From the NCBI GenBank assembly GCA_963842525.1, contig CAWJGT010000019.1, forward strand, positions 224,001-288,000: 64,000 nt of DNA, read 5' to 3'. Shown here piece by piece: positions 27,501 through 36,500 of the stretch. The notes below the pieces were generated by a model. The model was not told the DNA's origin and searched no databases. It saw nothing but the letters and a program-made list of their open reading frames with translations. Position 1 is the first letter of the stretch. Each line of letters starts with the position of its first letter. The DNA comes from an uncultured Holophagales bacterium (lineage in GTDB: Bacteria; Acidobacteriota; Thermoanaerobaculia; Multivoradales; UBA5704). Both the position numbers and the translations under genes were made by a program.

Positions 27501-30500
27501 ACGGCGTCCTCGAGTTCCTCGGCCGGATCGACCACCAGGTCAAGATCCGCGGCTACCGCATCGAGCTGGGGGAGATCGAGGCCGCTCTCTCTCTGCACCC
27601 GTCGGTGGCGCAGGCCGCGGTGGTGGCGCGCGACGACTGGGGCGATCGGCGGCTGGTGGCCTACGTGGCTCCCTTCGGCGCGCGCGAGCCGGTTGCCGCG
27701 GAGCTGCGCGAATTCCTGCGCGCGCGCCTGCCCGAATACATGGAGCCGGCGGCCTTCGTCGTGCTGCCCGCCCTGCCGCTCACCCCCAACCGGAAGGTGG
27801 ACCGGAAGGCGCTGCCCGCGCCCGAGGCCGCGGCGGCGGCGGCGGGCGCGTTCGTCGGGCCCAGGAGCCCTCTCGAGGAGGTTCTGGTCGAGGTCTGGGC
27901 CGAGGTGCTCCGTCTCGAGCGGGTGGGGATCGACGACGACTTCTTCGCTCTGGGCGGCCACTCCCTGCTCGCCACGCAGGTGGCCTCCCGCATCCAGCGG
28001 GCGCTCGGAGTGGCGCCGCCGGTGCGCTGGCTGTTCGAGCGGCCGACGATCCGCGGGCTGGCCGAGAGGGTGGCCGCGGCGCGCCACGAGGCCGGGCCCC
28101 AGGCGCCGCCCATCCTGCCGGTGCCGCGAGAGGGCGGCCTGCCTCTTTCCTTCGCCCAGCAGCGGCTCTGGTTCCTGGACCGGATGGAGCCCGGGAGCCC
28201 GGCCTACAACCTCAACAGCGCCATCCGCATCCAGGGCCGTCTGGATGCCGCGGCCCTCGTGCGAGCCTTCCAGGAGCTGGTGCGGCGGCACGAGACGCTG
28301 CGCGCGTCCTTCGTCCTGCGCGGCCGCGGCCCGGTCCAGGCGCTCGCGCCGGCGCTCGCCCTGCCGATCTCCGTGGTGGACCTCGGTGCGCTTCCGGAAG
28401 AGGCGCGCGAGGCCGAGGTCCGGGCGCTCGCCGCGGCCGAGAGCCTGCGTTCCTTCGACCTGGGCGTGGCTCCGCTCCTGCGCGTCACGCTGCTGCGCCT
28501 CGGCGGCGCGGACCACGCGGTGTTGCTCACGATGCACCACATCGTCTCCGACGCCTGGTCCATGGGGGTCCTGGTCACCGATCTGGCGCGGATCTACGGC
28601 GCCTTCGCCCACGGCGCCGGCTCGCCCCTGCCTGAGCTGCCGGTCCAGTACGCCGACTTCGCCGTCTGGCAGCGGGAGCATTTGCAGGGCGAGGCCCTGG
28701 AGAGCCAGCTCCGCTACTGGTCTGGCACCCTCGCCGGGGCCCCGGTGCTCGAGCTGCCCACCGACCGGCCACGGCCGGCCCTCCAGAGCTACCGGGGAGC
28801 TGACTTCGCGGCCGGCTTCTCCCCCTCCCTGAGCCGGGAGCTGGCCGACCTCAGCCGGCGCCACGGGGCGACGCCGTTCATGACGCTGCTGGCGGGCTTC
28901 GATCTCCTGCTCTCGCGGTACGCGGGGCAGGAGGACGTCCTCGTGGGCTCGACCATCGCCAACCGCACGCGGCCGGAGCTGGAGGGCCTGATCGGGCTTT
29001 TCGTCAATACCCTGGCCCTGCGGCTCGATCTTGCGGGCGATCCCACGTTCCTCGACGTGCTCTCCCGGGTGCGGGAGCTGACGCTGGGGGCCTATGCCCA
29101 CCAGGACCTGCCGTTCGAGAAGCTGGTGGCCGAGGTCCAGCCGGAACGCGACCTCAGCCGCTCCCCCCTCTTCCAGGTCCTCTTCCAGCTCCAGAATGCC
29201 CCGGCGGGGAGCATCGAGCTGCCGGAGCTCACTCTGACGCCGGTGGCGTCGCCCGGGCAGACCGCCAAGTTCGACCTGGTGGTCAACGTGGTTGCGGCGC
29301 CGCAGGGGCTGTGGTGGCAGTGGAAGCACAACAGCGACCTGTTCGATCGCGCCACCATCGTCCGCATGTCGCGCCACCTCGAGGCGCTGCTGGAGGCGGT
29401 GGCGGCCGGGCCGGGGCGGCTGGTCTCGGAGATCCCGCTGCTCTCCGAGGGCGAGGCGCATCAGCTCCTGGCGGAGTGGGGCGCGGCGCGGCCGGCTTCC
29501 CCGGTCTTCTGCCTGCACGAGCGGTTCGCGGCGCGCGTGGCCGAGGACCCGCAGGGACCGGCGGTGACCTTCGAGGGCGAGACGCTGAGCTACAGCGAGC
29601 TCGACCGCCGGGCCAACCGGCTGGCGCACAGGCTGCGTGCCTGGGGGATCGGCCCCGGCGCTCTGGTGGGTCTGTGCCTGGAGCGTTCGGCCGAGCTGAC
29701 CATGGCCGTTCTGGGCGTGCTCAAGGCCGGGGCGGCCTACGTGCCCATCGATCCGGACTACCCGGGTGAGCGCATCGCCTTCCTGCTCGAGGACAGCCGG
29801 GTGCCGGTGCTGCTGACCCAGAGCTCCCTGGTGGCGAGCCTGCCGGAGGCCTCCTGCCGGAAGGTCTGCCTGGATGGGGAGGACCTCGGAGAGCCGGGGG
29901 CCGGGAGCAAGGAGGGACCGGTCTCGCTCTCCTCGCCCGGGGACCCGGCCTACGTCATCTACACCTCGGGCTCTACCGGCCGGCCCAAGGGCGTGGTGGT
30001 GACCCACGCCAACGTGGCGCGCCTGTTCACGGCCACCGATCCCTGGTTCGGCTTCGGACGGCAGGACGTCTGGACCCTGTTCCACTCCTATGCCTTCGAC
30101 TTCTCGGTCTGGGAGATCTGGGGCGCGCTGCTTCATGGCGGCCGTCTCGTGGTGGTGCCGTATTGGGTCAGCCGCTCGCCGGAGGCCTTCTACGACCTGC
30201 TGCGGCGTGAGCGGGTGACGGTGCTCAACCAGACCCCCTCGGCCTTCCGCCAGCTCCTGTGGGCCGAGGAGGCGGCGCTGCAGGGCCAGGAGCCCGATCT
30301 GGCCCTGCGCTATGTGATCTTCGGCGGTGAGGCGCTGGAGCTTGCCGGCCTGGCCCCCTGGTTCGCCCGCCACGGCGACCGGCGGCCCGAGCTGGTCAAC
30401 ATGTACGGCATCACGGAGACGACCGTCCACGTCACCTGCCGGCCGTTGCGCCGCCAGGATGTCGAAGCGGCCCGCGGCAGCGTGATCGGCCGGGCGATCT

Positions 30501-33500: not shown

Positions 33501-36500
33501 CCGGCTCCACCGTGGCGAAGTTCGATCTGACGCTCACCTTCTTCCAGAGCCCCCTGGGCCTGGCGGGAGGGTTCGAGTACGCCGCCGCTCTCTTCGACGA
33601 GCCCACGATGGACCGGATGGCCGGCCACCTGGTCAGGCTCCTGGAGGCGGCTCTCGCCGCCCCGGACCAGCCCCTCTCCGAGCTGGTCCTCCTGGGGGAG
33701 CCCGAGCGCAACCAGATCGTGGGCGAGTGGAGCGGCCGCCGGGTCCCACTGCCGGAGGCCCTGCTGCCCGAGCGGATCGCGGCCTGGGCGGCCGCGGACC
33801 CCGCGGCTATGGCCGTGGAGTGGCCCGGCGGGAGCTGGAGCTATGGCGAGCTGGAGGCCCGGACCAACCGGCTGGCCCGCCGGCTCGGGCGCCTGGGCGT
33901 GGGTCCGGACGCGGTCGTGGCCCTCTGTGTCGAGCGCTCGCCCGGGCTGGTGGAGGGCCTGTTGGGCATCCTCAAGGCGGGAGGGGCCTTCCTGCCGCTG
34001 GATCCCGATTATCCGCGGGAGCGGCTGGCTTTCATGCTGGAGGACTCCGGAGCGCGCGTGCTGGTCTCCCAGGAGCGCCTGCTGGCCGGCCTGCCCGAAT
34101 ACGCAGGCGCGTCTGTCCTGCTCGATGTGGACCGCGAGGCGATCGAACGAGAGAGCGGCGCGCCATTCGTGTCCGGGGCTTCCGCCGGCAGTCTCGCCTA
34201 TGTGATCTACACCTCGGGCTCCACCGGCCGGCCGAAGGGCGTCCTGGTCGGCCACCGGGGGCTCGCCAATCTCGCCGAGGTCGAGACCCGGACCTTCCAG
34301 GCGGGGCCCGGGAGCCGGGTGCTCCAGTTCGCCTCGCCCAGCTTCGATGCCGCGGTCTGGGAGGTCGCAATGGCCCTGGGCTCCGGGGCGGCGCTCTGCC
34401 TGGCCGCGAAGACGGAGCTCCTTCCGGGAGCCGGCCTCGCCCGGCTGCTGCGCGAGCGCGGTGTCACGCACGCCACGCTTCCGCCGTCGGCCCTGGCCGT
34501 GGTGCCTGAAGAAGAGCCCCTGCCGGACCTGCGGTTCCTGGTGGTGGCCGGGGAGGCCTGCCCGGCGCCCCTGGCGCAGCGCTGGTCCCGAGGCCGCCGC
34601 CTCTTCAACGCCTATGGCCCCACCGAGGCGACTGTCTGTGCCACCGTGGGCGAGGTCTCCGGAGCACCCGGCCCCCGGGTGCCCATCGGCAGGCCCCTCG
34701 ACAATGCCGGGGTCTACGTCCTCGACCGTGGGCTGCGGCCCGTGCCGGCGGGGGTGCCCGGCGAGCTCTGGCTGGCCGGCGTCGGCCTGGCCCGGGGCTA
34801 CCTGGGCCGGCCGGACCTGACGGCGGAGCGTTTCGTGCCCCATCCCCTGGCCGGCTCGCCCGGCGAGCGGCTTTACCGCACGGGCGACCTCGCCCGCTGG
34901 CGGCCCGGCGGGAGCCTGGAGTTCCTGGGCCGCCTCGACGACCAGGTCAAGGTGCGGGGCTTCCGCATCGAGCCGGGGGAGATCGAGGCGGTGCTGGCCG
35001 CGCACGCGGCTGTGGCCCAGGCCGCGGTGGCGGTGTGGGGAGAGGCTGGAGACCGGCGGCTGGCGGCCTACGTGGTGGCGGCCGGCGAAGCGGCGCCGGT
35101 TCCGGCCGAGCTGCGCGAGCACCTGCGCTCGGTCCTGCCCGAGCACATGATCCCGGCCGCGTTCGTCGTCCTCCCCGCCTTGCCGCTGACTCCCAACGGC
35201 AAGGTGGACCGCAAGGCCCTGCCCGAGCCCGAGCGGGCGAGGCCCCGCGGCGAGGGCGCGCCGGCGGCGCCCCGCGACGAGGTGGAGGTCTTCCTGGCCG
35301 GGCTGTTCCGTGACGTCCTGAGCCTGCAGGAGGTCGGGATCCACGACGACTTCTTCGCGCTGGGGGGCAACTCCATCTCCGGCGCCGTCCTGATCAACCG
35401 GGTCCAGGAGGGGATCTCGGAAGCCGTCCCGGTGGTGGCCGTCTTCGACGCGCCGACCGTTGCCCGGCTCGCCGAGTACCTCGGTGGCGAGCACCCCGAA
35501 GCCGTCGCCCGCCTCAGGGCGGGACATCCGCACTGGCAGCCGGTTGAGCCCTCCCCGCTCGTGCCCGGCGAGCCGATCCCCCTCTCCTTCGCCCAGGAGC
35601 GGCTCTGGTTCCTCGACCGGCTGGCGCCGGGCTCGCCGGTCTACAACATCTCCTCGAACCTGCGCCTCCAGGGCCGGCTGGACCTGCCTGCTCTGGCGGC
35701 GAGCCTGGGCGAGATCGTGCGCCGGCACACCGCTCTGCGCACCCGCTTCGGCAGCCGGGACGGCGTGCCATTCCAGGTCATCGAGCCGGCGCCGGCCCTC
35801 GTGCCGCCCCTGGTGGACCTCTCCGGGCTCCCGGCGAAGCCGCGGGAGGCCGAGACCGGGCGGCTGGCGGCTTTCGCGTCGTCCCGCCCGTTCGACCTTG
35901 CCCGCGGCCCGCTGCTGAGGGTGTCGTTGCTGCGGCTGGGAGACGAGGAGCACGCCTCGCTGCTGACGATGCACCACGTCGTTTCGGACGGCTGGTCCAT
36001 GGGCGTGCTCACCCGGGAGCTGGTGTCCCTCTATGGCGCCTTCTCCCAGAGCCTCCCCTCGCCGCTGCCGGAGCTGCCGGTGCAGTACGCCGACTATGCC
36101 CGCTGGCAGCGGGAGTGGCTGCGGGGGGAGGTGCTGGAGCGGGAGATCGCCTTCTGGCGCGAGACCCTGGCCGGAGCCCCGGTCCTGGAGCTCCCCACGG
36201 ACCGCCCGCGTCCACCGGTGCAGAGCTTCCGGGGGGCGTCCTGCCGGGTCCACCTGCCGGCGGAGCCGGCCCGGGCCCTGGCGGCCCTGGGCCAGCGGGA
36301 GGGGGCGAGCCAGTTCATGGCCCTGCTGGCCGGCTTCGCCGCCCTGCTGGTGCGCTACGCGGGCCAGGACGACGTCTCTGTGGGCTCGCCGGTAGCCAAC
36401 CGGACGCGTTCGCAGATCGAAGGGCTGATCGGCTACTTCGCCAACACACTCGTGCTGCGGACCGACCTTGCGGGCGAGCCGTCTTTCCGCGGTCTCCTGG

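What the first reader, a model, noticed from the sequence alone, without database searches (positions are those of the whole stretch)
29510..33720. Sulfotransferase embedded in cis in an internal NRPS elongation module: C-A(Thr)-T-ST-C
Seen: a complete ST domain ([28 protein letters not shown]) between the T of a Thr module (DFWNIGMVHK) and the next C. Established: CurM and Ols STs with this motif sit at PKS termini and sulfate a beta-hydroxyl for decarboxylative elimination, and sulfazecin uses a separate trans-acting ST. Inference: here the beta-OH of T-bound peptidyl-Thr is sulfated in mid-assembly. The product would carry O-sulfo-Thr, or the sulfate would act as a leaving group giving dehydrobutyrine, Cy-independent oxazoline, aziridine or a crosslink. 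The following C looks like an ordinary LCL domain, which slightly favours a retained sulfate.
Basis: partly seen in the sequence, partly recalled or inferred. Interest (0 to 1): 0.88.

Follow-up and report, generated by a model that had tools for sequence, protein, structure and literature searches.

The report
Built-in sulfotransferase domains in peptide synthetase
A giant peptide-making enzyme from an uncultured soil acidobacterium carries two built-in sulfate-adding domains, each right after a threonine-loading step, a design that is common in uncultured bacteria but untested, and that most likely yields a sulfated peptide.

Summary
At window 31439-32293 an intact CurM-type PAPS sulfotransferase (ST) domain lies between the carrier (T) domain of a Thr-coded NRPS module and an ordinary condensation (C) domain.

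- A second copy, 90% identical, sits at 45147-46001 in the same assembly line.
- The genome holds seven such T-ST-C units.
- The next module is Phe-coded. It keeps the ST-type T domain and both linkers but has cleanly lost the ST.

The layout is not rare. There are 1188 protein clusters at E<=1e-30 and 546 stretches in species genomes, mostly Acidobacteriota MAGs. This scan had already met it on other DNA at least seven times. I found no characterised example in print.

ST presence follows the module's own residue (Thr, Ser or Tyr codes).
- Next-module control: 10 of 11 modules with an ST carry such a code, against 2 of 32 without one.

Other points:
- The C domains after an ST are ordinary.
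- In a T-ST-TE relative the TE is an ordinary NRPS TE, not CurM-like.
- Published in-cis NRPS STs (AerB, DysB, OciA loading modules) keep their sulfate.

Best reading (0.55): O-sulfonation of carrier-bound Thr, with the sulfate retained. Leaving-group chemistry such as Dhb formation stays possible (about 0.2). This is a new variant of a known kind, of moderate interest.

The parts
28145..29500 (+). Condensation domain of the first Thr-ST module
   Evidence: C1 motif at 28145 and HHIVSDA at 28535. Pfam Condensation.
29510..31020 (+). Adenylation domain, specificity code DFWNIGMVHK (Thr-type, assignment recalled)
   Evidence: A3 at 29966, A4 at 30095, A8 at 30683, A10 at 30992. Code read.
31090..31300 (+). 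Carrier (T) domain of the ST-associated type, [19 protein letters not shown], with Asn in place of the usual His before the Ser
   Evidence: GGHS-type T domains precede an ST in only 5 of 74 modules, against 60 of 84 modules without an ST.
31301..31438 (+). Conserved T-to-ST linker ([13 protein letters not shown]...)
   Evidence: Alignments.
31439..32293 (+). ST1: CurM-type PAPS sulfotransferase domain
   Evidence: The P-loop PRSGTT, the PPE Glu, the DKTPSY Lys and RHP are invariant in the 6 of the genome's 7 copies that were aligned.
32387..33720 (+). Ordinary condensation domain after ST1 (HHIVSDG at 32786)
34000..35515 (+). Next module: A domain coded DAWTVAAVCK (Phe-type) and an ST-type T domain (FFALGGNSI at 35351)
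35510..35521 (+). Junction where about 335 residues (linker and ST) are missing: ...EHPEAVARL | [13 protein letters not shown]...
   Evidence: Alignment. Both ST-flanking linkers are kept.
41853..45146 (+). Second C-A(Thr, DFWNIGMVHK)-T(GGNSI) module
45147..46001 (+). ST2: second sulfotransferase domain, 90% identical to ST1
46092..47450 (+). Condensation domain after ST2 (HHITSDG)

Best explanation
Each ST domain is an active PAPS-dependent sulfotransferase. It works in cis on the substrate held by the T domain just before it and puts a sulfate ester on the side-chain hydroxyl of the threonine loaded by its own module. The ordinary downstream C domain then passes the sulfated chain on, and the sulfate stays in the product. 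The product would be a large hybrid peptide-polyketide with two O-sulfo-threonines.

Shown:
- The domain, its conserved motifs and its position.
- The link between ST presence and hydroxyl-type residue codes.

Inferred:
- Activity.
- Thr-OH as the acceptor.
- The timing, whether the ST acts on the aminoacyl or the peptidyl intermediate.
- Retention of the sulfate.
For: 1. The domain is intact.
- E 3e-69 to CurM ST over the whole domain.
- P-loop Arg, PPE Glu, DK(T/S)P Lys and RHP are invariant in the six aligned genome copies, which are 61-90% identical to ST1.
- The CurM numbers R39, E60 and K133 are recalled. They fit the chain numbering with a 3-residue offset.

2. The target appears to be the module's own residue.
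- Own genome: of 199 readable A-T modules, 6 are followed by an ST (3 Thr, 2 Ser, 1 other). The other 193 comprise 17 Thr, 14 Ser, 5 Tyr, 151 other and 6 unreadable (Fisher p 0.0018).
- Related genome loci: of 71 readable codes before an ST, 52 are Thr-type, 10 Ser-type, 7 Tyr-type and 2 other.
- Control on the module after an ST: of 43 modules with a readable end, 11 carry an ST (6 Tyr, 3 Thr, 1 Ser, 1 Hpg-like with a divergent ST). The 32 without an ST comprise 2 Thr-type and 30 other (p 4e-7).
- Diverse representatives: 43 of 71 readable modules with an ST are Thr, Ser or Tyr, against 12 of 84 without an ST (p 2e-9).
- These p values ignore relatedness between the sequences.

3. A natural deletion.
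- The Phe-coded module keeps the ST-type T domain and both linkers but lacks the ST.
- Relatives carry a Tyr-coded module with an ST at that place.

4. Evidence for retention.
- Aryl sulfates on Tyr-coded modules cannot serve for beta-elimination.
- C domains after an ST are not a special clade: 5 changes for 7 rows among 252 C domains, with the nearest neighbour an ordinary C at 76% identity.
- The TE after the ST in relative P0031 is an ordinary NRPS TE (4zxh, 7e-29). No CurM TE is among its 38 hits.
- Published carrier-ST-C loading modules (AerB, DysB, OciA) give sulfated glycerate (passages).
- An AerB-like cyanobacterial protein (FkbM, FkbH, ST, C, A, T) has an ST 58% identical to ST1.

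5. PAPS supply. An APS kinase gene exists in the genome.
Against: - No biochemical data exist for any member of this clade.
- The nearest solved and characterised relatives, CurM and Ols, use the sulfate as a leaving group.
- The residue link is not absolute. 28 of 71 readable representatives with an ST have other codes, such as DIWExTADDK, Orn/Lys-like and Leu-like. So the acceptor may differ between clades, or may be a beta-hydroxyl added in trans. That would also weaken the Tyr argument.
- The AerB-like ST falls outside the 63-row starred clade that holds ST1, and its position is unresolved.
- CurM His62 is Glu here, and the effect of that change is unknown.
- The assembly line shows several frame breaks, so the cluster might be decaying.
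- Code-to-residue assignments are recalled, not tested.
Confidence: 0.55

Rival explanations
1. Sulfate as a leaving group. The ST activates the beta-hydroxyl of carrier-bound peptidyl-Thr. Sulfate is then lost, giving dehydrobutyrine, or an oxazoline, aziridine or crosslink. This would be an NRPS counterpart of CurM/Ols activation and of phosphate or glutamate activation in lanthipeptide dehydration.
For: - The closest solved relatives are the two 'activating' STs, CurM and Ols (passages of PMC3903477).
- Most ST-bearing modules carry beta-hydroxy residues: 62 of 71 are Ser/Thr-type in close relatives.
- A thioester-bound O-sulfo-Thr has an acidic alpha-proton (chemical reasoning, not tested).
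Against: - STs of the same family follow Tyr-type codes (7 of 71; 6 of 71) and other non-beta-hydroxy codes.
- There is no dedicated eliminating partner. The next C is ordinary, and the TE in a T-ST-TE relative is ordinary, not CurM-like.
- In CurM, as recalled, the sulfated thioester itself is stable until the TE acts.
Confidence: 0.2
2. The ST sulfates another nucleophile of the growing chain, such as a hydroxyl or amine of an earlier residue or an acyl starter. Its place after Thr would then reflect module ancestry only.
For: - 28 of 71 readable ST-bearing modules in the diverse set have codes without an obvious hydroxyl.
- An A-less C-T-ST module exists elsewhere in this genome.
Against: - The next-module control favours the module's own residue: 10 of 11 with an ST are Thr, Ser or Tyr, against 2 of 32 without.
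- The ST is lost in the Phe-coded module.
- ST clades follow residue codes in the close set: 35 changes against a shuffled mean of 59. Relatedness alone could produce this.
Confidence: 0.12
3. The domains are inactive relics, or the whole cluster is a decaying pseudogene.
For: - There are frame breaks near 10.3, 11.4, 40.7 and 48.9-49.1 kb.
- The break near 40.69 kb is not in a long homopolymer.
- CurM His62 is replaced.
Against: - All core motifs of C, A, T, KS, AT and ST are intact across the 64 kb.
- The catalytic positions are invariant in the six aligned paralogous STs.
- Glu at the His62 position is the rule for the NRPS-embedded family: 117 of 117 and 107 of 127.
- Frame breaks may be assembly errors. 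This could not be tested.
Confidence: 0.08

Closest known systems
CurM ST (curacin A) and olefin synthase ST; PDB 4gbm and 4gox
   Same: Same Sulfotransfer_3 fold family, aligned over the whole domain (E 3e-69 and 1e-59). Same P-loop Arg, PPE Glu and DKxPxY Lys. Fused directly after a carrier domain of an assembly line.
   Different: Those sit at PKS ends as ACP-ST-TE, act on a beta-hydroxyacyl chain and are followed by a special decarboxylating TE. Here the ST follows an NRPS Thr module and is followed by an ordinary C domain. CurM/Ols PPELHLL reads PPELELL here.
ST domains of the glycerate-loading NRPS modules AerB (suomilide, varlaxin), DysB (dysinosin) and OciA (cyanopeptolin/oscillapeptin)
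   Same: The ST is fused after a carrier domain and before the next module's C domain. The sulfate is retained in the known products (passages of PMC10143770, PMC6520454 and PMC2533009). An AerB-like cyanobacterial protein, P0170, has an ST 58% identical to ST1 and also reads PPELELL.
   Different: Those are loading modules with FkbH and act on glyceric acid. Here the ST is in internal elongation modules with an A domain for Thr. P0170 itself is uncharacterised and lies outside the clade of ST1 on the tree.
SulN of sulfazecin biosynthesis
   Same: PAPS-dependent sulfonation of a carrier-bound NRPS intermediate before the chain moves on (passages of PMC11298585).
   Different: SulN is a separate protein acting in trans. 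It N-sulfonates diaminopropionate, and the sulfamate then takes part in beta-lactam closure by the TE.
Leaving-group activation in lanthipeptide dehydration (phosphorylation or glutamylation of Ser/Thr). Recalled, not tested.
   Same: Relevant only under the rival reading: a Ser/Thr hydroxyl is turned into a leaving group to make Dha or Dhb.
   Different: Those are ribosomal peptides with different enzymes and different activating groups. No eliminating partner was found here.

Membership tests
CurM/Ols-type 'activating' sulfotransferase domains | Homology over the whole ST domain (Sulfotransfer_3 fold) | tested here: met
   Pfam 94.8 bits against a cut-off of 27. phmmer 4gbm 3.1e-69 and 4gox 1.2e-59.
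CurM/Ols-type 'activating' sulfotransferase domains | PAPS-binding P-loop Arg, catalytic Glu (CurM E60) and Lys (K133). Residue roles and numbers are recalled from McCarthy 2012, which is not held. | tested here: met
   All present in the alignment and invariant in the six aligned genome copies.
CurM/Ols-type 'activating' sulfotransferase domains | His at CurM position 62 (PPELHLL) | tested here: not met
   Glu here. Glu in 117 of 117 close homologues and in 107 of 127 occurrences in representatives, with His in 3.
CurM/Ols-type 'activating' sulfotransferase domains | ACP-ST-TE at the end of a PKS, after a KR-made beta-hydroxyl | tested here: not met
   The order here is A(Thr)-T-ST-C. No TE and no KR lie in the window.
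CurM/Ols-type 'activating' sulfotransferase domains | Partner TE that removes sulfate with decarboxylation | tested here: not met
   No TE follows here. In the T-ST-TE relative P0031 the TE matches ordinary NRPS TEs, and no CurM TE is among its 38 hits at E<=0.01.
In-cis ST tailoring domains of NRPS (AerB/DysB/OciA kind) | ST fused between a carrier domain and the next C domain | tested here: met
In-cis ST tailoring domains of NRPS (AerB/DysB/OciA kind) | FkbH glycerate-loading module as the substrate provider | tested here: not met
   An A domain with a Thr-type code precedes the T domain. FkbH was found only in P0170.
In-cis ST tailoring domains of NRPS (AerB/DysB/OciA kind) | Sulfate retained in the product | not testable with these tools
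   Needs a product or an in-vitro assay.
Trans-acting NRPS sulfotransferases (SulN kind) | Separate protein acting in trans | tested here: not met
   The ST is part of one 8037-residue frame.

The most novel reading that the evidence does not exclude
The sulfate is put on carrier-bound peptidyl-Thr only to leave again. The ST would then be the activating half of a so far unknown, assembly-line-embedded route to dehydrobutyrine/dehydroalanine, or to an oxazoline, aziridine or ether/thioether crosslink. This would be a third way, after phosphorylation and glutamylation, of turning Ser/Thr into an electrophile in peptide natural products, and it would be widespread in Acidobacteriota.
Probability: 0.2. 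Interest if true: 0.85.

Novelty: new variant of a known kind. Interest (0 to 1): 0.5.

Why it matters
Sulfated nonribosomal peptides are rare. Where the enzyme is known, the sulfate is added by a separate enzyme or in a glycerate loading module.

Here a sulfotransferase is a regular, movable tailoring domain of elongation modules, comparable to E or MT domains. It recurs in more than a thousand protein clusters, almost all from uncultured soil Acidobacteriota, whose chemistry is unknown.

If the domain is active it gives three things:
- It predicts a large hidden class of polysulfated peptides.
- It offers a portable part for engineering sulfation into NRPS lines.
- It provides a compact test system, the single-protein C-A-T-ST-TE relatives.

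If the sulfate leaves instead, it would be a new dehydroamino-acid chemistry.

Tried and rejected
- Literature. Six full-text searches found no characterised ST domain in an NRPS elongation module. They found only loading-module cases, trans-acting STs and a genome-mining figure legend. Searches for the codes DIWELTADDK and DASTVAAVCK gave 0 papers. The CurM ST structure paper is not held, so residue roles are recalled.
- Supplements are closed. Table S3 of PMC11298585 (Dap selectivity residues) might tell whether DIWEITADDK is a diamino-acid code.
- Reads. No RNA holder is listed, and the DNA holders share at most 0.10 of the words. Laying four runs gave only short pieces 95-99% alike and no indel rows. 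Nothing bridges the frame break near 40.69 kb, so the frame breaks stay unresolved.
- A special C-domain clade after the ST was looked for and not found.
- PAPS-supply or sulfatase genes beside the cluster were looked for and not found. The flanks hold glutamate dehydrogenase, a CBM9/DUF5916 protein and a NYN-domain protein.
- NCBIfam gave no family above its cut-off for the ST.
-, a whole-protein PDB search, was uninformative for the TE. It was repeated with the TE part alone.
- Rows dropped from counts:
  - 3 artefact rows and 2 unreadable codes of 76.
  - 3 of 120 homologues without the P-loop pattern.
  - Homologues with fewer than 640 residues before the ST.
  - 3 modules cut at the locus end.
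  - L086 was recounted as ST-bearing after inspection.

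
Full report
**The sequence.** The window is G000:C19:224001-288000, from a 9.95 Mb genome with about 72% G+C. It is filled end to end by one co-directional NRPS/PKS assembly line.
- The finding lies in the 8037-residue frame 18506-42619.
- A map of core motifs gives the order C (28145, 28535), A (29966, 30095, 30683, 30992), T (FFELGGNSI, 31160), ST (PRSGTT, 31484), C (32387, HHIVSDG 32786).
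- Pfam Sulfotransfer_3 scores 94.8 bits against a cut-off of 27.
- phmmer against all PDB chains gives the CurM ST (4gbm, E 3.1e-69, aligned over query residues 63-355) and the olefin-synthase ST (4gox, 1.2e-59). The next hits are tyrosylprotein sulfotransferases at about 6e-06.
- The ten specificity positions of the A domain read DFWNIGMVHK. I assign this to Thr from recall.

- A second C-A(DFWNIGMVHK)-T-ST-C unit lies at 41853-47450. Its ST is at 45147-46001 and is 90% identical to the first.
- tblastn of ST1 on the whole genome finds seven copies at 59-100% identity. Each lies in a long open frame, after a T domain and before a C1 motif. Three distant stand-alone sulfotransferases score about 27%.
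- Codes before the seven copies: DFWNIGMVHK twice, DFWSVGMVHK once, DVWHISLVDK (Ser-type) twice and DIWEITADDK once. One unit has no A domain at all, a C-T-ST unit.
- The module directly after ST1 has the code DAWTVAAVCK (Phe-type). It keeps the ST-type T domain (GGNSISGA...LINRVQ) and both ST-flanking linkers, but about 335 residues are missing at ...[22 protein letters not shown].... It is the only GGNSI-type T domain in the genome without an ST.
- That module is 76% identical to the following Tyr-coded module and 55-58% identical to Tyr-coded, ST-bearing modules of relatives.

**Is the domain intact?**
- In the alignment to 4gbm, the P-loop Arg, the Glu of PPE and the Lys of DKxPxY are kept. 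With a 3-residue offset these fit the CurM numbers R39, E60 and K133, which I recall from McCarthy et al. 2012. That paper is not held.
- These positions, and RHP, are invariant among the six aligned genome copies, which are 61-90% identical to ST1.
- One difference is systematic. CurM and Ols read PPELHLL, while all copies here read PPELELL. So do 117 of 117 close homologues with a recognisable P-loop (3 of 120 lacked the pattern). In the 50%-identity representatives, 107 of 127 occurrences have Glu, 7 Asp, 5 Gln, 3 His and 5 other residues.
- In the alignment to TPST2, this position faces an Arg of that enzyme. I infer that it lines the acceptor site and marks the peptide-type substrate. This is not tested.

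**How common is it?**
- A word-indexed search over proteins of 539-2000 residues gave 861 hits at E<=1e-10. Nearly all named ones are Thermoanaerobaculia, Pyrinomonadaceae, Blastocatellia or other Acidobacteriota MAGs.
- A full HMMER scan of 1.84 billion cluster representatives gave 6250 proteins at E<=0.001, 1826 at E<=1e-10 and 1188 at E<=1e-30. The best 150 are almost all multidomain.
- In one genome per species, 546 stretches encode a relative. The best 78 loci are almost all Acidobacteriota MAGs, with a few Herpetosiphonaceae and Holophagales.
- Among the 127 ST occurrences in representatives, 62 are followed by C and 26 by TE. A further 22 are cut and 17 are unclear.
- This scan had already noted the layout on other DNA: e1-2789355, e1-4875589, e1-2079281, e1-1065556, e1-2079282, e1-1095371 and e1-4546128.
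- Six literature searches found no characterised example in an elongation module.
- What is in print, seen as passages:
  - ST domains in the glycerate loading modules of OciA (PMC2533009), DysB (PMC6520454) and AerB (PMC10143770).
  - The trans-acting SulN (PMC11298585). Its genome-mining figure legend also lists an 'S: sulfotransferase domain'.
  - CurM/Ols ST-TE (PMC3903477).

**What is the acceptor?** I read the specificity code of the A domain before each ST and compared it with modules that have no ST.
- Own genome: of 199 readable modules, 6 have an ST (3 Thr, 2 Ser, 1 other). The other 193 comprise 17 Thr, 14 Ser, 5 Tyr, 151 other and 6 unreadable (Fisher p 0.0018).
- Close relatives in genomes: there were 92 ST occurrences, 76 with an upstream A domain. 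I dropped 3 index artefacts and 2 unreadable codes. Of the remaining 71, 52 are Thr-type, 10 Ser-type and 7 Tyr-type (DASTVAA[VI]CK). One is DIFHFGLILK and one is DIWEITADDK.
- Control on the module that follows an ST module: there were 46 rows, 3 of them cut. Of the 43 left, 11 carry an ST (6 Tyr-type, 3 Thr, 1 Ser, and 1 Hpg-like whose ST is divergent, with Gly for the P-loop Arg). The 32 without an ST comprise 2 Thr-type and 30 other (p 4e-7).
- Diverse representatives: of 74 modules with an ST, 24 are Thr, 13 Ser, 6 Tyr, 28 other and 3 unreadable. Of 84 without an ST, 6 are Thr, 4 Ser, 2 Tyr and 72 other (p 2e-9).
- These tests ignore relatedness, and the code assignments are recalled.

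Together with the ST loss in the Phe-coded module, these counts make the module's own side-chain hydroxyl the most likely acceptor. The 28 'other' codes (DIWExTADDK seven times, DA[LM]VSG..FK five times, Orn/Lys-like and Leu-like) show that the wider family is not limited to beta-hydroxy residues, or that it uses hydroxyls added in trans.

**Retained or leaving?** Nothing here is decisive.

For retention:
- Tyr-coded modules carry the same kind of ST, and an aryl sulfate cannot eliminate. The caveat is that a beta-hydroxy-Tyr made in trans would escape this argument.
- The C domains after an ST are not a clade of their own. Among 252 C domains, the 7 that follow an ST need 5 changes, and one is 76% identical to a C domain behind an ordinary GGHSL T domain.
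- In the T-ST-TE relative P0031 the TE is an ordinary NRPS TE (4zxh, 7e-29). No CurM TE is among its 38 hits.
- The published carrier-ST-C cases keep their sulfate.
- An AerB-like cyanobacterial protein (FkbM methyltransferase, FkbH at 298 bits, ST, C, A, T) has an ST 58% identical to ST1 with PPELELL.

Against retention:
- That AerB-like ST lies outside the 63-row starred clade of ST1 on a FastTree tree rooted on the one PKS-type representative, and its position is unresolved.
- The only biochemically studied relatives are 'activating' enzymes.

I put retained O-sulfo-Thr at 0.55, leaving-group chemistry at 0.2, another acceptor at 0.12 and an inactive relic at 0.08.

**Surroundings.**
- The line starts with a C domain at about C19:216222 and ends at about C19:300411 with a C-A-T module fused to an MFS transporter. 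No TE was found.
- No PAPS-supply, sulfatase or hydroxylase gene lies beside it. An APS kinase gene is elsewhere in the genome.
- The reading frame changes near 10.3, 11.4, 40.69 and 48.9-49.1 kb. Public runs hold only short related pieces and do not settle whether these are assembly errors.

**Verdict.** The domain is real, apparently functional and correctly described. It is an uncharacterised, widespread variant of a known principle, an in-cis sulfotransferase on an assembly line. Here it sits in elongation modules and is tied to Thr.

Noticed in passing
window about 10200-10700, 11300-11700, 40688-40700, 48900-49100: The assembly line changes reading frame inside domains. For example, the AT domain reads ...[14 protein letters not shown] and then continues in the +1 frame. 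The break near 40.69 kb is not in a long homopolymer. These may be assembly errors or real decay.
   Followed up: partly
window A domains with A3 motifs at 649, 7224 and 17116: Three A domains share the code CVQHIAQVIK, with Cys where the Asp that binds the alpha-amino group normally sits. My patterns did not find their A8 and A10 motifs. The substrate may not be an alpha-amino acid.
   Followed up: no
window 22000-24800, 38900-41700, 49500-52300: Three PKS modules consist of KS-AT-T only. Pfam finds no KR, DH or ER domain, so the units would be keto units. The first is preceded by an A domain coded DPRHLVLRAK.
   Followed up: no
L088:6742-12411 (G000:C19:294742-300411): In one frame, the last module of the line (C-A-T) is fused to an MFS transporter domain. 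No thioesterase was found at the end of the cluster.
   Followed up: partly
G000:C19 about 498000-503100: In another cluster, a Thr-coded module has an ST-type T domain (GGSSITGA) but no ST. It is followed by a C-T-ST unit whose A domain is missing.
   Followed up: partly
L086 about 8204 to the end; L069 second module: L086 has a divergent ST after an Hpg-like code, with Gly for the P-loop Arg and Arg for the DK Lys. L069 has a Thr-coded module with a GGNSI-type T domain and a remnant linker but no ST. Both look like stages of ST decay or loss.
   Followed up: partly
T domains before STs, all data sets: Carrier domains before an ST rarely have the usual GGHSL motif: 5 of 74, against 60 of 84 modules without an ST. 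They read GGNSI, GGDSI or GGSSI instead. This may be a recognition feature for the ST.
   Followed up: partly
window 62067-63250: The last module in the window has a GGDSI-type T domain followed by an epimerisation-type motif, HHLVGDGVSW.
   Followed up: no
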